DNA of 60,263 nt from a virus (Duplodnaviria; Caudoviricetes), in the IMG/VR virus record IMGVR_UViG_3300044724_009327, positions 1 to 60,263 of that record; one strand, 5' to 3'. The stretch's first letter is position 1; every line of letters starts with the position of its first letter. The translations under genes and the position numbers were made by a program. The notes beneath the pieces were generated by a model that saw only the letters and a list, made by a program, of their open reading frames with translations, had not been told where the DNA came from and did not search any database. Of this stretch, positions 8,510 through 37,617 are shown piece by piece.

Positions 8510-10117
8510 CTAGAAAGACTTGTTGAATCCTAGTGTAAGTTTCCTACCCTCTTGACTAAAACCATGAGGTGACTCATAGTTCTCATCCAACAAATTAAGC
8601 AGACTTACACCAAATTGGATACCATGGTAATCATAACCAAGATTCAAGTCTAGTAAATGTGTCTCTGGCATGGATATTGTTGACCAATTGGAGTTGTGTA
8701 CATCTAGATGTTTGCCCTTGTACTTGTAATTTGTGGTAAGAGAAAAATTATTTTTGAAGTCCTGGTTGTGCATGAATCCAAGGGTCCAACTGGGTCGTCT
8801 TAATTGTACCACTTCTTTTTTCTTGCTGTTTAAATGACTGGCAAAAACTTTGAAGTCTTTTATGCCATAACTGACTTCTAGCCCATCTGTGTTTAAATCG
8901 CTTATGTCATTTTTGAATATGGTTGTTGAGAAATTATTTTTAGTCAATGTGAGTTCCTGTGACTCACCATATTCTATTGCTGTCCAAGTGGTCTTGTCCT
9001 TGTAACTGGTGGATGTGCTACCGCTGATGCTTAATCCATCTTCCAGTTCTCTAAAGAACCCTAACTTGTAGGTCTCATGTTCTTCGTCAAATCTGTGTTG
9101 ATATGAAAATACATTATAAGATAGATTGTAAAAATATCCTAGGTTGTGGTGTTGTCCGGTCAGTGATTCGTTGTGCTTGTAGTCAAATCCAAATCCAAAC
9201 TTTTCATATTGTTGTGTAGCCCTCATTGTGTAGTTCTCACTCTCGTAGTGGGCGTCATCATAGTCCCTGTCATACTCATGCGTGTGGAAAGTCAAACTAG
9301 AATTTTTATAATCCAATCCTGTCTGTAGAGCATAGAAAGTGTTGTCTGCCCATTTATCATTCTGTATGGCAAGACTGTGACCGTCGATGTCTGAGAATGT
9401 GTTCCTTGCGAACCACGATGTTCTAAAATGCACAAGGTCATACCACTTGCTAACATTTACACCTATCGTCTTGTTGTTGGTACCATCCTTTTCATCAGCA
9501 CCTGACAAGGCAGAAACATTTTCAGATTTGTGTTGCCCCGCTGATACGGATATGTCAAAATCATTCAACCTGGTGTAGTAATTTCCATTGATTGTTTGAT
9601 CATTGCCATTGCCTGCCAAACTTAATTTCTTATCATAGTCGACTGTGGTTCTAAAGTTTATAGCACCGCCGACTGCATCTGCTCCCCAATGTGCACCTGC
9701 CGATCCCTTGTACACATCGACCTGCATGACATTAAACATAAAGTCCTGTCCAACATCATGAGCACCCGTGGGTGTGGAGTAGTCGTTTATAGGTATCCCA
9801 TTCAACAAAACAAGTGTGTGATTTGAATTGGTACCCCTCATGAACACAGAACTCTGTTGTCCTGTTGGTCCAGACTGTGTGATGTCTAATCCCTGTACAT
9901 AGTTCAACACTTTGGGCAGATCTATTAGATTGTGTTTTTGTATTTCTGATTTTGTAATTGTTCGTGTGGGTGTAATCTTGTCACCGAGTGCGTTTGAATT
10001 ATTCGTATATTTTGGATAGATAGTTGTACAAGGGATAGTGTTATCCCACTCGCATTCGTCAGCATATGCCACACCCGTAAACATAAGCAACACGAAAAAC
10101 ATTATATATTTTTTCAT
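8510..10117 (-). CDS. TonB-dependent receptor, BtuB-like (cobalamin)
   Basis: Signal peptide, plug motifs MRGTNSNHTLVLLNG and KGSAGAHWGADAVGGAIN, NLLDENY, C-terminal Phe; upstream cobalamin riboswitch. Confidence 0.85.
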   Translation of the reverse strand: MKKYIMFFVLLMFTGVAYADECEWDNTIPCTTIYPKYTNNSNALGDKITPTRTITKSEIQKHNLIDLPKVLNYVQGLDITQSGPTGQQSSVFMRGTNSNHTLVLLNGIPINDYSTPTGAHDVGQDFMFNVMQVDVYKGSAGAHWGADAVGGAINFRTTVDYDKKLSLAGNGNDQTINGNYYTRLNDFDISVSAGQHKSENVSALSGADEKDGTNNKTIGVNVSKWYDLVHFRTSWFARNTFSDIDGHSLAIQNDKWADNTFYALQTGLDYKNSSLTFHTHEYDRDYDDAHYESENYTMRATQQYEKFGFGFDYKHNESLTGQHHNLGYFYNLSYNVFSYQHRFDEEHETYKLGFFRELEDGLSISGSTSTSYKDKTTWTAIEYGESQELTLTKNNFSTTIFKNDISDLNTDGLEVSYGIKDFKVFASHLNSKKKEVVQLRRPSWTLGFMHNQDFKNNFSLTTNYKYKGKHLDVHNSNWSTISMPETHLLDLNLGYDYHGIQFGVSLLNLLDENYESPHGFSQEGRKLTLGFNKSF

Positions 10118-10159: not shown

Positions 10160-10278
10160 AGAACTAGACTTTCCCAGGCCCTCGCTCGACAGCGGACTTA
10201 TACTGGTTGGCACTCCGACTTTACGGTTCCTGGTAGAGCCATGGAATTGCACCTTGATTCCCCAACATGATTCAGTAA
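10160..10278 (-). promoter_or_regulatory. Cobalamin riboswitch (class II / AdoCbl-variant type)
   Basis: Minus strand TACTG..TTGG-GGAA..GGTGCAATTCC (T-loop)..CCAGG..CCGTAAAGTCGG-AGTG-CCAA-C-CAGTA, then hairpin with CCTGG complementary to CCAGG (kissing loop); upstream of BtuB-like gene. Confidence 0.85.
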
Positions 10279-13802: not shown

Positions 13803-14126
13803 TTATTTGTCCTTAAAATACTTTTCTAATCTTCCTTGTTCTCCCGAGTGCTTCTCGTGATCTGGCATGGGGTCTTTCTTCTCTGTGAGCACCGCCCACT
13901 CCTGCGACCACTTGCCATTGAACTCTATCCATTTGGCGCCTTCCGGATCAGTATCAGGAAGTATTGCGTCCTCTGGACACTCTGGCTCACACACCCCACA
14001 GTCAATGCACTCGTCTGGGTTTATGACCAGCATGTTCTCACCTTCGTAGAAACAATCCACTGGGCATACACTAACGCAGTCGGTGTGCTTACACATTATA
14101 CACTTGTCATTTACTGTGTATGTCAT
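13803..14126 (-). CDS. fdxA: Ferredoxin (FdxA-type, dicluster)
   Basis: [18 protein letters not shown] and [12 protein letters not shown]. Confidence 0.93.
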
Positions 14127-14160
14127 TTGTTACTATCCATTATTATAACATTAATTTAAT

Positions 14161-15168
14161 TTACTGTCTATTGTCATAAAGAAATTTAGATAGAATATCA
14201 TCATTTTCCATGTAAGGCACTAGATTAAAAAGTTTATCACCCATGTCAAACTCGTGGGCGTGTAGATTCTCGGACTCCAACCAGTGTCCTTTTGGTATTC
14301 TACCAACATAGCAAAGTTCGTGTTGTTCCAGGCCAAGTATCCTACACCACTTGTTTTGGTAAGGAACGAACTTGTCTCTGACGTAATGATAACCAAATTC
14401 ATCTATAAATCTTTTTCCTATGTGGTAGATCAGTTTGTTCCCCAAGGGGTATAGTGACTGTTCTTTGCTCACAGGCTTCTTCCAGTAAGCGAACCCGCCC
14501 TTCATACCTGCCATGGGCAACATCTTGGATATGCTGTGTGTGACAACCTCGACACAATCAGTGTGAGCAAGTTTTATAACTTCCTTGGTCAGTGGCAACC
14601 AGATCAAATCCAAAACGACAGGAATGCCCTGTTCCGTGCATCTCGACAGTATGTCATCTATGGATGGGTGGTTCTTGAAGTTTGAATAGAAAGGCACACT
14701 GATGATCAATAGGTCGTCTTTGGATAGGTCATCTATTTTTTCTATTGTCCTTTGTGCAAGTTTTTGATGATACCAATATTCGTTTTCAAACACAACGGGT
14801 GTTCTATATCTGTGCTGTTGCATGAACTCAAGCACCGTGTGTACAGTTGAGGACATCGGTTCACATTCGTACTCATCCCAATGCATACCTATGTCAGGCA
14901 GAGATGAGCCTTGTATCTTTTCTTCGAAGTGATTGTATCCATACATGTCTATCTTTACGGACTTCAGCCAATCTATCACGTTGGGCAAATTCGCCGACCT
15001 TAATCCAAGATGCAGTCCACTGACTCTCTCATGCATGTCAAATGTTGATGAAGATTTGGGTTTCTGATATGACAGTGAACCTCTTTTGTTTTCATCTACC
15101 AGTTCGGCTTTAGCAATTATCCATTTCATTTGTTCGTAATGTCTGCTTACTGAATTATCCATTGACAT
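14161..15168 (-). CDS. Putative PLP-dependent transferase-fold protein
   Basis: PVVLD and HSISKMLPMAGMKGG resemble the class I/II aminotransferase Schiff-base Lys motif. Confidence 0.5.
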   Translation of the reverse strand: MSMDNSVSRHYEQMKWIIAKAELVDENKRGSLSYQKPKSSSTFDMHERVSGLHLGLRSANLPNVIDWLKSVKIDMYGYNHFEEKIQGSSLPDIGMHWDEYECEPMSSTVHTVLEFMQQHRYRTPVVFENEYWYHQKLAQRTIEKIDDLSKDDLLIISVPFYSNFKNHPSIDDILSRCTEQGIPVVLDLIWLPLTKEVIKLAHTDCVEVVTHSISKMLPMAGMKGGFAYWKKPVSKEQSLYPLGNKLIYHIGKRFIDEFGYHYVRDKFVPYQNKWCRILGLEQHELCYVGRIPKGHWLESENLHAHEFDMGDKLFNLVPYMENDDILSKFLYDNRQ

Positions 15169-16288
15169 ACTGTTCTGCTATTTTGTTGAGGTTGTTTAAA
15201 TGATCGCTTTGTTTCCAATGCAGTTTATCAAAAACTCTCTTCCATTCAGGCATCACTTTCGTTATGTCAGTCTTCCAATACTGATCGAGTTGTTTGATAA
15301 AGTTGACTGGATCGTGTGTCGCTTTGGGTTCTATGTACTTTCTGTATTTTTCAGGCACGAGATCGTGCAATTGATATGGCAAATTGTGAGGAGATAGCTC
15401 ACCAGGTTTGTCAATCAATCCCGGTTGTGACCAGAATATCCCATTGTCCTTGCACCACTGCTCCAGTTCTGGCAATCGCAACATTGTCATCACACTTATA
15501 GTGGAGGCCACCTGCAACGATATTCCATTTGTTCTCAGGAGTTTTATGTTTTCTGTTAACTTGTTCCAGTTGCAACCAGGTCGTACGTATTCCTGTACTG
15601 CACCCACGCCGTCTATGCTGATGCTTAGAACAACATCCTTGAACTTTTTAATCATTGCCACAGTGTCTAGGTCTATCCTTGTTGCATTGGTTGTGATGTG
15701 TAAGGTTATGTGTTCGTTGTCACCTGTGCTGATCAACTCTCTTAACAAGTTCTTTGCTTTCTTGTGATAGAATGGCTCACCTCCATTTATATCCACATAA
15801 CTTATGTGTTTCCTGTTCTCGAGTATGTAATCCGGAGTGTTCATCAAAGTGTCCACTTCCATGTTCTGTGTCTTGCCGAGAATATCCCAAACCTTTTTGA
15901 CCTTTGTGCTGAAACTAGGAAGGCACATTCTACAGGCGAGGTTGCATTCTTGGCCAACAGTGTACTTGACCTGTGTGGGCGGAAGTTCCATTTTGGTTTG
16001 TTTGAGTCTTTCTTTGTACTCCTCAAGTCTGCCCTCGTTGATCCGCTGTCTCATACTTGCGATGCCGTTGTCTTCGGCCTTCCAACAAAGTCTACAACCT
16101 TTGGGTCTCTTGCCTGCAAGTAGGTCCTCACGTAGTTTTATGATTTCGTCACTGTTCCAGTAGGAATCTATATCTCTGTGTTCGCCCTCCGGCTCGTAGA
16201 AACAACATGGTGTGAGCGTGGTTCTGCCCACGTGGTTGTTCCTGTTTCTGTCAACGGCGATCCAGGGCATTATGCAAATGTTTTTCAT
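15155..16288 (-). CDS. Radical SAM protein with N-terminal Cys-rich (twitch/SPASM-like) domain
   Basis: CNLACRMC, GGEP; N-terminal C-x-MPW..PCC..CxxC. Confidence 0.88.
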   Translation of the reverse strand: MKNICIMPWIAVDRNRNNHVGRTTLTPCCFYEPEGEHRDIDSYWNSDEIIKLREDLLAGKRPKGCRLCWKAEDNGIASMRQRINEGRLEEYKERLKQTKMELPPTQVKYTVGQECNLACRMCLPSFSTKVKKVWDILGKTQNMEVDTLMNTPDYILENRKHISYVDINGGEPFYHKKAKNLLRELISTGDNEHITLHITTNATRIDLDTVAMIKKFKDVVLSISIDGVGAVQEYVRPGCNWNKLTENIKLLRTNGISLQVASTISVMTMLRLPELEQWCKDNGIFWSQPGLIDKPGELSPHNLPYQLHDLVPEKYRKYIEPKATHDPVNFIKQLDQYWKTDITKVMPEWKRVFDKLHWKQSDHLNNLNKIAEQYVNG

Positions 16289-16315
16289 CTTACTCTATTA
16301 TACCTTTTTTTATAA

Positions 16316-16419
16316 ATGTTAGCAAGACTTTTGCGTACGGAAGGGCGTTCTTGTTAGGTAAAGAGCTTCTGCTCAAGCGTCCTATTTTTGTCCGACGTCA
16401 TCCGGATGATGGCGTTACA
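16316..16419 (-). ncRNA. Unidentified structured RNA, copy A
   Basis: Shares conserved blocks and hairpin layout with 33702-33805; TATAAATA at 16424-16431. Confidence 0.6.
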
Positions 16420-16434
16420 TGGATATTTATACTA

Positions 16435-16662
16435 TTATTGATCTTGGAGTTTTTTCTCTAACTCGTAGTAACCGCCAAGATGTTCTCCGTCGAGCCAAAT
16501 CTGTGGCATTGTCTTTGCGTTAGGAACAAGTTCTAGTAGGTCCTGTATCTTGTGTCCTTCTGCTATGTTCTTCTCTTCGTATTCTATTCCTTTGCTTTTT
16601 AATAAGTTCTTTGCCTTTACACAATAAGGACATGCCGGTTTGCTCCATACTACTGCTTTCAT
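16435..16662 (-). CDS. Glutaredoxin
   Basis: CPYC, TMPQI, GG motifs. Confidence 0.92.
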   Translation of the reverse strand: MKAVVWSKPACPYCVKAKNLLKSKGIEYEEKNIAEGHKIQDLLELVPNAKTMPQIWLDGEHLGGYYELEKKLQDQ

Positions 16663-32316: not shown

Positions 32317-33651
32317 TTAATAGAAAGATTGTAGTCTATAAACCCCTTCTAAGAAAATATCGTGTAACACAAAACCATAAATCAATGGCATTGTATTGAA
32401 TCTCCTGATCAAGTATCCGAACGGTAAGAGGCAAGCCAGTATTACCATATTGTCCCACCCTGCGAATGTCTTCTGTGCTGTCGTGTAGCAAATGATCAAC
32501 AATAGCACAAAGATTCCCGAATAGAATACTTTTAAATTAAGTCCTGAAAATACCTTCAGGAAGTTGACATACTTCCCTGCTATGAACAGTCCCAGTATAC
32601 TGCTGAGTGCGAAACCTATCAGCACTATCTCATACAGGCTCTGGAAGAATGCCACTGTTGGCACCATTCCCTGGAATAGAAGTATGTTGTATACCAGTGC
32701 AGTACTGGCAGTGATTGGTATACCTGCAAAAATCATGGGCACCATGGAAGTGTAGACGCCTGCGTTGTTTGACGTTTCCGCCGCCACAAGACAGTTCACA
32801 TCACCTTTCTCGTTGTAGATACCTTTCCTCTTTCTCAACATCAGTTCTGTGATGTATGCAAGTTTTGTAGAAAGTCCCCAACTCACACCTGGCACAAATC
32901 CCGCCAGTGCACCTATCACACTGCTTCTGGCCAATGTGGATTTCATTTTAGTCAACATGGTACGAGCGGCCGACACGTATCCACTGATGGTAACTCCATC
33001 GAATTCTATCTTGCCACTGTTGTTCCATGCCTTTGCGAACACAGGCACAACGAACAAGGATATCATCACTGGCAAGAGGTCTATGCCTGCGTACAGTGAG
33101 TTGATTCCGAATGTGGCAAAGTCCCATCCTCCGTAGAAATCATGGTAACCTACCATTGCCAGCAGATTGCCTGCCATCCAGAACAAGAAACTTATCCAAA
33201 TCTTGTTTCCTGAGAAAATTATAATTGTGATACAAGCGATGCTCAACAGGAACACCTGAATGTGTGTGTTAAACATCTGGTAGAAAATATCTAGCATCGG
33301 TAGTGAGAGGTGTATCAACACTATTGCAAACATGCTGGCTATGAAACTTCCAATGGCCGCTGTCATTATTGCCTCTGATCCTCTGCCATTCTGGAACATA
33401 GAATGTCCTTCTTGTAGAGCTGGCAGACTGGTGTTGCTACCTGGTATGGCGAATACCGTGGCACTCACACTGCCAAAATACTGATGCACACTAGCAAGGC
33501 TGATGTACATGAACATTATGCTGACTGGATCCCAGGTCAATAACAGTGGGAAAACTAAAAGTATAGAAACAAATACATTCAGTCCGGGTATGATTCCGGA
33601 AATGACTCCGAGGCTTGATCCCACAATGAATGCTAATACTAATTCAAACAT
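32317..33651 (-). CDS. TctA-family tripartite tricarboxylate transporter permease
   Basis: Multi-TM; GIIPG, AIPG, GFVPG, AAETSNNA, GIP motifs. Confidence 0.82.
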   Translation of the reverse strand: MFELVLAFIVGSSLGVISGIIPGLNVFVSILLVFPLLLTWDPVSIMFMYISLASVHQYFGSVSATVFAIPGSNTSLPALQEGHSMFQNGRGSEAIMTAAIGSFIASMFAIVLIHLSLPMLDIFYQMFNTHIQVFLLSIACITIIIFSGNKIWISFLFWMAGNLLAMVGYHDFYGGWDFATFGINSLYAGIDLLPVMISLFVVPVFAKAWNNSGKIEFDGVTISGYVSAARTMLTKMKSTLARSSVIGALAGFVPGVSWGLSTKLAYITELMLRKRKGIYNEKGDVNCLVAAETSNNAGVYTSMVPMIFAGIPITASTALVYNILLFQGMVPTVAFFQSLYEIVLIGFALSSILGLFIAGKYVNFLKVFSGLNLKVFYSGIFVLLLIICYTTAQKTFAGWDNMVILACLLPFGYLIRRFNTMPLIYGFVLHDIFLEGVYRLQSFY

Positions 33652-33701
33652 GTCTTATGAGTATAACATACCCTCCGATATCCAGTCAACATTGTTAATT
33701 G

Positions 33702-33805
33702 ATGTTAGTGGAGGGGTTCCACATAGGGCGGGCCTTTTAAAACCTGGATTTCTTCCAATCCAGCAGGTCCGTTTGGTCCCACGTCATCTGAACGATGGCG
33801 TTACA
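33702..33805 (-). ncRNA. Unidentified structured RNA, copy B
   Basis: Homologous to 16316-16419; TAAATA at 33811-33816. Confidence 0.6.
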
Positions 33806-33820
33806 GGAGATATTTATTGA

Positions 33821-34279
33821 TTATTTTAACTTCTTGAGCATTTCTGATTCTGCTCTTGCTTTCCACTTGGCCTGTTCGGCTTTCTCTTCATCGGAAAGTT
33901 CTCTCCTGACAAATCCTGGCTCTTCTTTTTGTTCTTCATCTTCGACTTTGGTAGGAGCCTCCATCGGCATGCCACAGTTGTTGAACCATCTGTTGTCTGC
34001 TGTTTGATAACACACAGAGTAGAATGAATTTCCATCCATGCCTTTTACTAGTCTACGTTTTTTGTGTATCTTGCCTGTGTACTCTGAAAAATCTTTTTGT
34101 ATCAGTCTGTGTGTGCCATGTATTGAACCATACAATCTATCTATGTATATTGGGTTACCTTTGGCATCTTCACCATATTGGTTAGAGACCACTGTGAATT
34201 TTTGTTCAAACCTTTTTGGTGCTGAATCTGTTATCTTGCCCAGTCCCTCTAGTAATTTTTTTGTTTTGTCGCTTGGCAT
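33821..34279 (-). CDS. Hypothetical protein
   Basis: 152-aa ORF. Confidence 0.6.
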   Translation of the reverse strand: MPSDKTKKLLEGLGKITDSAPKRFEQKFTVVSNQYGEDAKGNPIYIDRLYGSIHGTHRLIQKDFSEYTGKIHKKRRLVKGMDGNSFYSVCYQTADNRWFNNCGMPMEAPTKVEDEEQKEEPGFVRRELSDEEKAEQAKWKARAESEMLKKLK

Positions 34280-37276: not shown

Positions 37277-37297
37277 ATACCTTAATTTAGCATAGAA

Positions 37298-37326
37298 TTG
37301 ACAGAACGTCAACCTTAAGGTATAAT
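37298..37326 (+). promoter_or_regulatory. Consensus sigma70 promoter of tmRNA
   Basis: Exact TTGACA-17-TATAAT. Confidence 0.88.
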
Positions 37327-37331
37327 TATGT

Positions 37332-37617
37332 TTAAGTTTGTTGACTAACAATCAATAGATGCTGAAGACCTGGGTGCAATTCCCAGCCACTCCACCATTT
37401 AAGCAATGAAACTTGAGGGGTGGAATTAGGATCGATTCACATTGAAACTTGTTACGAGAACTTCCAGTAGGCACGAGGTAACGTCCAGTTTTTAAATGCA
37501 AACAAAAAAGCATTAGGATTTGCTGACTTAACAGTTGGTATGTCTGAATTGAGATTAGCGGCGTAATAACCGTTTATTTCAGGGGCGGCCCCTGCCTTGC
37601 AACAGAAGTGGGGCACT
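37332..37617 (+). ncRNA. ssrA: Circularly permuted two-piece tmRNA
   Basis: T-arm CTGGG-TGCAATT-CCCAG and CCACTCC-A-CCA (37370-37397) precede GGGGTGG (37417-37423), giving a 7-bp acceptor stem with G3:U70; TAAAT then tag ANKKALGFADLTVGMSELRLAA-stop (37498-37566). Confidence 0.92.

What the first reader, a model, noticed from the sequence alone, without database searches (positions are those of the whole stretch)
16316..16431. Two divergent copies of an unrecognised structured RNA, each under a phage late promoter (second copy 33702-33816)
Seen: two intergenic segments ~17 kb apart share, on the minus strand, TAAATA, then TGTAACGCCATC-N5-GATGACGT (hairpin, different loops), GGAC-A-rich-GGAC, a variable hairpin (GAGC/GCTC vs CTGGATT/AATCCAG), CGCCCT, a second variable hairpin (GCAA/TTGC vs GTGGA/TCCAC) and CTAACAT. 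Stems change sequence but keep pairing, while single-stranded blocks are fixed. There is no shared ORF and the flanking genes are unrelated. Inference: a late-expressed ~100-nt phage RNA family (protein sponge/decoy, packaged RNA or catalytic RNA). I do not recognise it as a named family.
Basis: partly seen in the sequence, partly recalled or inferred. Interest (0 to 1): 0.88.

Follow-up and report, generated by a model that had tools for sequence, protein, structure and literature searches.

The report
New structured leader RNA of marine phages
Two copies of a previously undescribed, strongly conserved folded RNA sit exactly at late-promoter start sites in front of nutrient-transport and radical-SAM genes of an uncultured marine T4-like phage, and over a hundred relatives occur in ocean metagenomes, but what the RNA does is still open.

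Summary
Both segments are there, on the minus strand. The shared core occurs 2 times in the window and 0 times in 100 shuffles.

A covariance model built from 14 relatives separates true copies (42.9-110.7 bits full length; two copies cut by contig ends score 39.3 and 54.9) from chance (23 bits or less). It finds copies in 113 of 118 marine metagenome loci and in about 20 viral contigs: 112 distinct sequences among 128 hits.

The fold is a four-way junction:
- P0 is short.
- P1, P2 and P4 covary strongly.
- An arm (P3) of variable length has a conserved base.
- 97.5% of cells are paired, against 83.4% in shuffles.
- 296 cells carry double changes, against 82 in shuffles.

Nothing in Rfam 15 matches. 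The element was not found in cellular genomes, in HTVC008M or in deposited phages.

A TAAATA box lies 5-6 nt upstream in 98 of 106 contexts, so the RNA most likely begins at the conserved G. A sigma-70-like promoter usually lies between the element and the gene. Downstream genes are mainly TctA, TctC-like binding proteins, radical SAM enzymes and a 270-aa unknown protein.

I found no expression platform and no terminator. My best reading is a cis-acting 5' domain of late transcripts. A stand-alone late small RNA remains a serious rival.

The parts
16424..16431 (-). Copy A: late-promoter-like box TATAAATA, 5 nt before the first conserved base
   Evidence: Sequence read.
16318..16418 (-). Copy A: structured RNA core (101 nt). 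P0 is G16418-C16318 and U16417-A16319. P1 is 16415-16408 with 16402-16395 (C16412 opposite A16398). P2 is 16394-16391 with 16341-16338. The P3 base is 16381-16378 with 16347-16344 (A16380 opposite C16345). P4 is 16334-16331 with 16325-16322.
   Evidence: Covariance-model match of 101.5 bits. Pairs are counted.
16297..16325 (-). Copy A: sigma-70-like promoter TTGCTA-17-TATAAT. Its -35 overlaps the 3' strand of P4.
   Evidence: 10 of 12 consensus matches. The same layout recurs in the short-gap relatives.
15155..16288 (-). Gene downstream of copy A: twitch-domain radical SAM protein (377 aa)
   Evidence: Pfam Radical_SAM, E 2.8e-16. NCBIfam NF033640, 274.7 bits against a cut-off of 170.
16435..16662 (-). 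Gene upstream of copy A: glutaredoxin (75 aa)
   Evidence: Pfam Glutaredoxin, E 3.1e-17.
33811..33816 (-). Copy B: late-promoter-like box TAAATA, 6 nt before the first conserved base
   Evidence: Sequence read.
33704..33804 (-). Copy B: structured RNA core (101 nt). P0 is G33804-C33704 and U33803-A33705. P1 is 33801-33794 with 33788-33781. P2 is GGG 33780-33778 with CCC 33728-33726. The P3 base is 33769-33766 with 33734-33731. P4 is 33722-33718 with 33712-33708.
   Evidence: Covariance-model match of 75.0 bits.
33660..33689 (-). Copy B: sigma-70-like promoter TTGACT-18-TATACT between the element and the gene
   Evidence: 10 of 12 consensus matches, with TG before the -10.
32317..33651 (-). Gene downstream of copy B: TctA, the large membrane subunit of a tripartite tricarboxylate transporter (444 aa)
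   Evidence: Pfam TctA, E 2.2e-65.
33821..34279 (-). Gene upstream of copy B: 152-aa protein of unknown function. It belongs to family U1, the commonest upstream neighbour of the element.
   Evidence: No Pfam or PHROG match. Upstream cluster U1 has 32 members.

Best explanation
The element is a conserved RNA domain of about 95-125 nt. It forms the very 5' end of transcripts started at T4-type late promoters, in front of accessory-gene cassettes of uncultured marine T4-like phages related to pelagimyophages.

Fold:
- A four-way junction. The two 5'-terminal bases pair with the AC of the conserved UAAC at the 3' end (P0).
- P1 is a hairpin.
- P2 follows P1 directly and closes a central arm. In that arm an A-rich strand of about 8 nt leads to P3.
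- P4 is a second hairpin.
- P1 and the base of P3 each hold the same 3-bp module, 5'-GAC/5'-GCC, with an invariant A opposite C.

Most likely mechanism. The domain acts in cis on late transcripts only. The gene's own sigma-70-type promoter lies downstream of the element, so early transcripts lack it. The domain would bind a protein or small ligand and thereby set the fate of the late transcript (stability, read-through or translation).

Shown here: the fold, its conservation, its position relative to both promoter-like sites and the genes, and its restriction to this phage group.

Inferred: that the late box is used and fixes the 5' end, that the RNA acts in cis, and that it binds something.
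For: Structure:
- On 101 distinct sequences, 97.5% of cells are paired against 83.4% in shuffles. There are 296 double-change cells against 81.6 in shuffles. The covariation score is 0.398 against 0.138 (0 of 500 shuffles reach it). Slid controls pair in 55% of cells or fewer.
- The seven highest mutual-information column pairs are all pairs of the model.
- RNAalifold recovers P1, P2 and P4 on its own.

Selection on the core:
- Positions not fixed by my search patterns are near-invariant: the GAC and GCC of P3 (99-101 of 101), the U after P2 (101 of 101) and the A of UAAC (101 of 101).
- Meanwhile the downstream proteins of family D2 fall to 23-26% identity.

Late start site:
- TAAATA lies 5 nt (78) or 6 nt (20) upstream in 106 contexts, although the pattern allowed 3-9 nt.
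- In the search that did not ask for the box, 12 of 14 distinct copies have TAAATA and 2 have TAAGTA at the same spacing.
- All 5 further copies found through protein homology have the box at 5 nt.
- In the window, ATAAATA is on the coding strand 13 times, 10 of them touching intergenic DNA, and never on the other strand.

Leader position:
- 118 of 128 copies have a same-strand ORF of at least 60 aa starting within 450 nt. Nine of the other ten lie within 204 nt of a contig end.
- No intrinsic terminator follows either window copy.
- Downstream genes fall into 13 families and upstream genes into 33. TctA follows the element behind at least 7 different upstream families.

Precedent: T4 genes e, soc, 49 and I-TevI use a choice of promoter to include or omit a 5' RNA structure (PMC3014915, passages read).
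Against: - I found no expression platform. Predicted accessibility of the Shine-Dalgarno and AUG region in late leaders is the same as with shuffled upstream sequence: 0.49 against 0.51 for 51 long-gap leaders (p = 0.19), and 0.44 against 0.47 for 51 short-gap leaders (p = 0.05; the sequences are related, not independent).
- The distance to the start codon varies from 7 to 168 nt beyond the model's end, and a separate promoter-like site lies in between.
- Both the upstream and the downstream gene families are shuffled around the element.
- No transcript start or end was observed. The public RNA runs gave contigs only, with almost no cover on the elements.
- The downstream gene set has no obvious single metabolic theme.
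- The two invariant A-opposite-C positions would be G-U pairs on the other strand, so pair types alone do not fix the strand.
Confidence: 0.5

Rival explanations
1. The element is a stand-alone late small RNA. The late promoter makes a structured RNA of about 100 nt that is released by processing or by termination near the downstream promoter stem-loop. It then acts in trans, for example by titrating a host or phage protein. The gene behind it is served by its own sigma-70-type promoter.
For: - The element is a closed structural unit whose 5' and 3' ends pair (P0).
- Its distance to the ORF varies, with an independent promoter-like site in between.
- There is no sign of ribosome-binding-site sequestration.
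- Both neighbours vary.
- In T4-type phages, promoter-plus-stem-loop cassettes were shown to terminate transcription (PMC2839356, passages read). The long-gap relatives carry such an inverted repeat around the early promoter.
Against: - No terminator-like site follows either window copy.
- The stem-loops in the long-gap class are not followed by U runs (sequences).
- In the short-gap class the start codon follows the model's end by only 7-24 nt, with no hairpin.
- Copies are always placed directly before a limited set of gene families.
Confidence: 0.25
2. The element is a metabolite- or ion-sensing riboswitch aptamer of a new class. This is a special case of the cis reading. The junction and the twin GAC/GCC modules would form a ligand pocket, and the phage would place transporter and cofactor-enzyme cassettes under ligand control late in infection.
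For: - The complexity and conservation pattern fit: covarying stems, near-invariant junction and internal-loop bases, and a peripheral arm of variable length.
- 60 of 118 downstream genes are transporter parts (TctA 40, TctC-like 17, Peripla_BP_6 3). 18 are radical SAM enzymes.
- The same window carries a bona fide AdoCbl-II riboswitch before a TonB-dependent receptor gene.
Against: - No expression platform was found.
- The promoter between aptamer and gene is atypical for a riboswitch.
- The gene set also includes PP-loop-like proteins, a sugar aminotransferase and an unknown 270-aa family, with no common pathway.
- No copy was found in cellular genomes.
Confidence: 0.15
3. The element is an RNA that acts on the transcribing polymerase, in the manner of the put RNAs of phage HK022 (recalled, not read here). 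Made at the start of the late transcript, it would render RNA polymerase resistant to downstream stem-loop terminators, so that late transcription crosses the cassettes.
For: - It sits immediately after a promoter, whatever gene follows and at whatever distance from the ORF.
- Stem-loops around the early promoters lie downstream in the long-gap class.
- Several copies can occur per genome: the window, L165 and L240 hold two each.
Against: - No terminators were detected downstream in the window.
- The fold has four to five helices and bears no resemblance to the two-stem put RNAs (recalled).
- Short-gap copies have nothing to read through before the gene.
Confidence: 0.05
4. The conserved segment serves mainly at the DNA level, as a homology patch for shuffling gene cassettes, as proposed for PeSL elements. 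Alternatively the functional RNA is made from the opposite strand, where the two A-opposite-C positions become G-U pairs.
For: - The same upstream family (U1) precedes 4 downstream families, and TctA follows at least 7 upstream families. This fits recombination at or near the element.
- PeSL-mediated shuffling is documented in T4-type phages (PMC2839356).
- On the opposite strand P1 and P3 would be uninterrupted helices.
Against: - Compensatory changes in four helices, including the long-range P2, show selection on a folded single strand. That is not needed for a recombination patch.
- Excluding the weak outermost pair, G-U cells (21) outnumber A-C cells (12).
- The outer P1 pair goes from A-U through G-U to G-C.
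- The TAAATA box at fixed spacing and the common orientation with the genes have no role in an antisense model.
Confidence: 0.05

Closest known systems
manA and wcaG RNA motifs (structured RNAs before auxiliary genes of marine cyanophages; Rfam RF01745 for manA; what they are is recalled)
   Same: These are structured, conserved RNAs found in marine T4-like phage DNA and metagenomes. They sit upstream of auxiliary metabolic genes and their ligand or partner is unknown.
   Different: There is no sequence or structure match. Rfam 15 gives nothing at the elements at E up to 10 or at E up to 1 in 14 further loci. The only manA row there is a 20.6-bit match (gathering score 55.2) lying beside an element, not on it. 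The present RNA is tied to a late-promoter box at 5-6 nt and is followed by a second promoter.
PeSL cassettes of T4-type phages (PMC2839356, passages read)
   Same: PeSLs are repeated intergenic regulatory modules before accessory genes in the variable regions of T4-type genomes. The long-gap relatives carry a sigma-70-like promoter inside an inverted repeat right after the element. Genes on both sides are shuffled.
   Different: PeSLs are an early promoter plus one stem-loop that acts as a terminator. The element here is a 100-nt multi-helix RNA with covariation in four helices. It is headed by a late-type box and lies upstream of the PeSL-like part.
Promoter-dependent leader structures of T4 genes e, soc, 49 and I-TevI (PMC3014915, passages read)
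   Same: Two promoters of different temporal class give transcripts with or without a 5' RNA structure before the same gene.
   Different: In T4 the longer, earlier transcripts carry a simple hairpin that hides the ribosome binding site. Here the late transcript is the longer one, the structure is an elaborate conserved domain, and no sequestration of the ribosome binding site is predicted.
AdoCbl-II riboswitch in the same window (10200-10278, minus strand)
   Same: It is a structured 5' leader before a transport gene of the same phage.
   Different: It is a known family (81.1 bits). It sits behind a sigma-70-like promoter (TTGACA-17-TAAAAT) with about 80 nt of leader before the ATG. It has no late box and no second promoter.
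put RNAs of phage HK022 (recalled)
   Same: They occur in more than one copy per phage genome. They are placed after promoters, before unrelated genes, and act in cis.
   Different: They have a two-stem fold, belong to a lambdoid phage and show no similarity. Read-through activity was not testable here.

Membership tests
Any Rfam 15 family | A covariance-model match at or above the family's gathering score | tested here: not met
   - The whole window at gathering threshold gives 3 matches, none at the elements.
- At E up to 10, copy A gives 0 matches.
- At E up to 10, copy B gives 3 matches of 11-15 bits against gathering scores of 40-117.
- 14 further loci at E up to 1 give 3 matches, none on an element.
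Riboswitch (as a class) | A conserved, structured aptamer with covarying stems and conserved unpaired bases | tested here: met
Riboswitch (as a class) | Location in the 5' untranslated region of the regulated gene | tested here: inconclusive
   This holds only for transcripts from the late-type box. A sigma-70-like promoter lies between the element and the gene. No transcript ends were observed.
Riboswitch (as a class) | An expression platform (terminator or ribosome-binding-site sequestration) coupled to the aptamer | tested here: not met
   No terminator-like site follows either copy. Accessibility of the Shine-Dalgarno and AUG region equals that of shuffled controls.
Riboswitch (as a class) | Specific ligand binding | not testable with these tools
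   This needs in-line probing or calorimetry.
Riboswitch (as a class) | Downstream genes that share a pathway or substrate | tested here: inconclusive
   Of 118 downstream genes, 60 are transporter parts and 18 are radical SAM enzymes. There are also 32 of an unknown 270-aa family, plus PP-loop-like proteins and a DegT aminotransferase.
PeSL regulatory cassette | A sigma-70-like early promoter joined to a single stem-loop in an intergenic region of a variable genome part | tested here: not met
   The element itself has a late-type box and four to five helices. A PeSL-like promoter and inverted repeat lies next to it in the long-gap relatives.
T4 gene e-type leader | The extra 5' sequence of the longer transcript pairs with the ribosome binding site | tested here: not met
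   (no difference from shuffled leaders).
T4-type late promoter | A TATAAATA-like box without a -35 element, on the coding strand, just before the transcript start | tested here: inconclusive
   Box and spacing are conserved. The box is biased towards the coding strand and intergenic DNA. The consensus was taken from PMC3014915. Use of the box, and a gp55-like factor in this phage, were not tested.

The most novel reading that the evidence does not exclude
The RNA is a new class of ligand-sensing (riboswitch-like) domain that works only on late-promoter transcripts. By switching promoters, the phage would move its nutrient-uptake and radical-SAM cassettes from unregulated early expression to metabolite- or ion-controlled expression late in infection. 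Sensing would use the twin GAC/GCC modules, each with an A opposite C, and the four-way junction.
Probability: 0.15. Interest if true: 0.85.

Novelty: new variant of a known kind. Interest (0 to 1): 0.72.

Why it matters
Structured RNAs of this complexity and conservation have often turned out to be riboswitches, ribozymes or specific protein-binding sites. This one is abundant in ocean metagenomes and confined, as far as searched, to uncultured relatives of the phages of SAR11 and marine cyanobacteria. It is attached to the genes through which such phages are thought to reprogramme host nutrient uptake. It also offers direct sequence evidence for late promoters in this phage group, which an earlier genomic study could not define (PMC7029224, passages read). 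If the RNA senses a ligand or recruits a factor, it would show how these phages time and tune their auxiliary genes. The alignment and model made here are enough to start bench work.

Tried and rejected
Rfam. No family matches.

Cultured and deposited phages:
- blastn of copy A finds only chance matches of 12-24% cover.
- tblastn of TctA finds only hits of 28% identity or less in unrelated records.
- tblastn of the 270-aa family finds nothing.
- HTVC008M has no copy; the best covariance-model score is 11.5 bits.

Cellular genomes:
- A protein-based scan with TctA found no relative.
- A DNA-pattern scan found 4 stretches. Their best model score is 14.3 bits, which I count as chance.
- Only copies that keep the strict P1 motif could have been found this way.

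Expression:
- The run search gave only small shares, 0.07-0.14 of the words in RNA runs.
- Laying contigs of 4 runs gave cover on conserved genes such as Hsp20 but almost none on the elements. Contigs cannot show ends. Nothing can be concluded from this about transcription of the element.

Ribosome-binding-site sequestration:
- The first comparison of late against predicted early transcripts (0.50 against 0.80 unpaired, 39 leaders) is confounded by transcript length.
- The shuffled-leader control shows no effect.

The complementarity between CUCCUAU in the conserved -35 region and AUAGGAG-type Shine-Dalgarno sites, seen in some long-gap leaders, is not general. I did not pursue it.

A pairing between the P1 loop and the GGA before P3 was considered and dropped. 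It does not hold across relatives (by eye; it is absent from the top mutual-information pairs).

The 270-aa family has no Pfam, NCBIfam or PDB sequence match. It has invariant H-x-D and a later H; reading this as a cupin-like metal site is only my guess.

Literature. The following searches and passage finds gave no description of this RNA:
- 'pelagiphage' with 'riboswitch'.
- TctC, phage, auxiliary metabolic and SAR11 (0 papers).
- 'pelagimyophage'.
- 'promoter early stem loop' or 'T4-type'.
- 'structured RNA', 'viral metagenom', 'late promoter', 'riboswitch candidate'.
- A find in 10.64898/2026.10.21.760802 (0 occurrences).

I read search listings and abstracts, plus passages of PMC7029224, PMC2839356 and PMC3014915. 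Supplementary files were not seen and could list such a motif.

Full report
WHAT IS THERE

Copy A has the box TATAAATA at 16431-16424, a 5-nt spacer and a core from G16418 to C16318. Copy B has TAAATA at 33816-33811, a 6-nt spacer and a core from G33804 to C33704. The two 161-nt stretches align at 77% mean column identity. The shared P1 core, allowing 3 mismatches, occurs twice in the window and in none of 100 shuffles. A covariance-model scan of the window with filters off gives these two copies (101.5 and 75.0 bits) and nothing above 8 bits otherwise.

The window is a 60-kb fragment of a viral record. One of its proteins is closest to Pelagibacter phage HTVC008M (42% identity), followed by T4-like cyanophages at about 40%. 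HTVC008M is filed under Kyanoviridae. Other genes in the window:
- NrdA and a Clp-type ATPase-like protein.
- An Hsp20-like gene, by its DNA match to the Hsp20 gene of HTVC008M.
- A two-piece tmRNA and an AdoCbl-II riboswitch.

RELATIVES

A pattern for the P1 core gave 5 viral loci, of which 2 were real. I built model R1 from 14 copies. It scores 16 matches at 68.7-110.7 bits and everything else at 22.7 bits or below.

Adding the late box to the pattern gave 17 viral stretches. Five were new; four of those match the model and one does not. Of those 118 loci, 113 hold a model match:
- 95 of 100 loci.
- 18 of 18 loci.

Full-length matches score 42.9 bits or more. Two copies cut off by contig ends score 39.3 and 54.9. 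In all I collected 128 hits with 112 distinct element sequences. Five larger viral records of 64-149 kb hold one copy each. Loci L165 and L240 hold two, like the window.

The metagenome set was chosen by a strict motif plus the box, so it cannot be used to argue that those parts are conserved. For an unbiased view I fetched 18 viral loci through the protein family downstream. Seven of them have the element directly upstream (58.6-95.6 bits, filters off). The other eleven lack it and mostly have no intergenic space there. Five of these seven were new. They show the outer P1 pair changing from A-U to G-U (four copies) and to G-C (one copy).

STRUCTURE

RNAalifold finds P1, P2 and P4 on 14 and on 103 sequences. 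I added a short P0 and the base of P3 by eye. On 101 distinct rows:
- 97.5% of 2110 cells form standard pairs, against 83.4% in shuffles.
- 296 cells carry changes on both sides, against 81.6 in shuffles.
- The covariation score is 0.398 against 0.138, and 0 of 500 shuffles reach it.
- Sliding the partners by 1-3 columns drops pairing to 24-55%.

This alignment was fitted to the model, which leans towards the structure. However, the helices were first predicted on a MAFFT alignment. An unsupervised mutual-information ranking also puts seven model pairs at the top, and 11 of the 16 highest-ranked pairs are model pairs.

Examples of covariation:
- First pair of P2: C-G 81, G-C 17.
- Third pair of P2: G-C 91, A-U 10.
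- Fourth pair of P2: C-G 38, A-U 36, G-C 9, U-A 6.
- Inner pair at the P3 base: C-G 64, G-C 22, A-U 13.

A further pair just outside the P3 base is Watson-Crick in 59 of 101 rows (34 G-C, 15 C-G, 9 U-A, 1 A-U).

P1 and P2 abut without a spacer. The strand from P2 to P3 is A-rich and about 8 nt long, opposite a single nucleotide. Three nucleotides (U, purine, pyrimidine) join P2 to P4, and UA joins P4 to P0.

P3 beyond its base comes in several forms:
- A simple hairpin.
- A form with a GNRA-capped hairpin.
- A form with the conserved word UUUAC.
- One copy with the unit duplicated.

P1 and the P3 base contain the same module, 5'-GAC paired with 5'-GCC, with A opposite C. This opposition is invariant in 101 of 101 rows for P1 and 99 of 101 rows for P3. 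The first of these lies inside my search motif; the second does not.

WHICH STRAND, AND WHERE THE RNA STARTS

Excluding the weak outermost P0 pair, G-U cells number 21 and A-C cells 12. The two invariant A-opposite-C positions would be G-U on the other strand. Pair types alone therefore do not decide the strand.

What decides it for me is the box. TAAATA ends 5 nt (78 contexts), 6 nt (20), 7 nt (4) or 8 nt (2) before the conserved G, in 106 distinct upstream contexts, although the patterns allowed 3-9 nt. In the search that did not require the box, 12 of 14 distinct copies have TAAATA and the other two have TAAGTA at the same spacing.

In the window, ATAAATA occurs 13 times on the coding strand, 10 of them touching the 9% of DNA that is intergenic, and never on the other strand. 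TATAAATA is the T4 late promoter read by gp55 (PMC3014915, passage). That late starts lie about 5-6 nt after the box is my recollection, not a tool result.

If that holds, the RNA begins at or 1 nt before the G. This fits the pair counts. The G-C and U-A pairs of P0 are kept in 101 of 101 rows, counting wobbles, while the pair one step further out fails in 30 of 101.

SURROUNDINGS

Of 128 copies, 118 have a same-strand ORF of at least 60 aa beginning within 450 nt. Of the other ten, nine lie within 204 nt of a contig end and one (L001) had no such ORF called. The upstream ORF often ends within a few bases of the box.

Downstream proteins fall into 13 clusters:

| Family | Copies | Basis |
|---|---|---|
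| TctA | 40 | Pfam, E 2.2e-65 for the window's |
| 270-aa protein, no family match | 32 | |
| TctC-like signal-peptide proteins | 17 | one member matches Pfam TctC, E 2.4e-8; the rest joined by blastp |
| Twitch-domain radical SAM | 12 | NF033640, 274.7 bits |
| Other radical SAM | 4 | |
| B12-binding radical SAM | 3 (one cluster of 2, one singleton) | |
| Peripla_BP_6 binding protein | 3 | |
| Proteins with weak PP-loop matches or an SGGxDS-like word | 5 (one cluster of 3, two singletons) |; the word was seen by eye |
| DegT aminotransferase | 1 | |
| Unknown | 1 | |

Upstream proteins fall into 33 clusters. TctA is found behind at least 7 of them, and the commonest upstream family precedes 4 downstream families. 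The ORF thresholds differed between the two sides (60 against 40 aa), so the 13-against-33 contrast is only rough.

Between element and start codon there are two layouts:
- Short gap, 7-24 nt after the model's end. A TATAAT lies 5-8 nt before the ATG, and in many copies TTGCTA sits 17-18 nt upstream of it. That is, the 3' strand of P4 doubles as a -35 (for copy A).
- Long gap, about 60-170 nt. A sigma-70-like promoter (TTGACT with a conserved CCTATTG after it, then a -10 of TAYRCT type) lies inside an inverted repeat and is followed by a Shine-Dalgarno site. Copy B has TTGACT-18-TATACT.

This second module resembles the PeSL cassettes of T4-type coliphages (PMC2839356). Neither window copy is followed by a terminator-like site on its strand.

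WHAT IT IS NOT

- No Rfam 15 family matches.
- Nothing similar is found in 50,697 deposited phage records by blastn, nor in HTVC008M with the model.
- Representative genomes of 185,579 prokaryotic species hold only 4 pattern matches, all of which fail the model. That scan needed the strict P1 motif.
- A study of pelagimyophage genomes reported finding no riboswitches and being unable to define late promoters (PMC7029224, passages).
- My other literature searches found no description.

HOW IT MAY WORK

The firm points are these:
- A complex, strongly constrained RNA fold.
- A 5' end set by a late-type promoter.
- A position before a limited set of accessory genes.
- A second, sigma-70-type promoter that would give early transcripts without the domain.

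This recalls T4 genes e and I-TevI, where the choice of promoter decides whether a 5' structure is present. I therefore favour a cis-acting late-mode leader domain that binds a protein or ligand. The twin modules and the junction are the obvious candidates for a binding surface.

The weak point is that I could find no link to the ribosome binding site. Late leaders are no less accessible around the Shine-Dalgarno site and AUG than the same leaders with shuffled upstream parts:
- Long-gap class (51 leaders): 0.49 against 0.51, p = 0.19.
- Short-gap class (51 leaders): 0.44 against 0.47, p = 0.05.

These sequences are related and not independent. An earlier comparison with predicted early transcripts was confounded by length.

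The domain might act on stability or on the polymerase. It might instead be released as a small RNA, which is the main rival reading. Public RNA runs did not help: they held only small shares of the region, as assembled contigs, with next to no cover on the elements.

VERDICT

The family is new to Rfam and to the literature I could search. It is widespread in marine metagenomes and, as far as searched, specific to one group of uncultured T4-like phages. The late-promoter link is well supported by sequence.

Noticed in passing
window 37294-37617 (+): A phage-borne two-piece (permuted, alphaproteobacterial-type) tmRNA. Rfam alpha_tmRNA scores 78.3 bits and tmRNA_permuted 87.5 bits. ARAGORN calls a permuted tmRNA with tag peptide ANKKALGFADLTVGMSELRLAA.
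   Followed up: no
window 10200-10278 (-), with ORF 8510-10117 (-): An AdoCbl-II riboswitch (81.1 bits) sits behind TTGACA-17-TAAAAT. It lies before a 535-aa protein with a TonB-dependent receptor Plug domain. The phage therefore carries a riboswitch-controlled outer-membrane receptor gene.
   Followed up: partly
window, whole: ATAAATA occurs 13 times on the minus (coding) strand, 10 of them touching intergenic DNA, and never on the plus strand. This is a usable late-promoter signature for this phage group. An earlier study reported failing to define late promoters in it (PMC7029224).
   Followed up: partly
L064, L078, L207, L237 and other long-gap loci, between the element and the ATG: A conserved sigma-70-like promoter (TTGACTCCTATTG ... 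TAYRCT) lies inside an inverted repeat (AGTGTAGTA ... TGCTACACT), resembling PeSL cassettes. The CUCCUAU next to the -35 is complementary to AUAGGAG-type Shine-Dalgarno sites in some loci.
   Followed up: partly
short-gap loci such as L176, L240 (74-174) and window 16297-16302: TATAAT lies only 5-8 nt before the ATG and no Shine-Dalgarno site is visible. Transcripts from this promoter may therefore be leaderless.
   Followed up: no
L185:1007-1193: One copy of the element is 187 nt long because the central arm holds a second copy of the GACGC...CTCTTTAC unit.
   Followed up: no
window 13803-16662 (-): Copy A sits in a run of redox and iron-sulfur genes: glutaredoxin, twitch radical SAM, a 335-aa unknown protein, and a 4Fe-4S ferredoxin with DUF3470.
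   Followed up: no
records behind L127, L064, L017, L124, L104 and the window: CheckV completeness estimates of 17-43% for contigs of 60-149 kb would imply genomes well above the 147 kb of HTVC008M. The estimates may not be reliable for this group.
   Followed up: no
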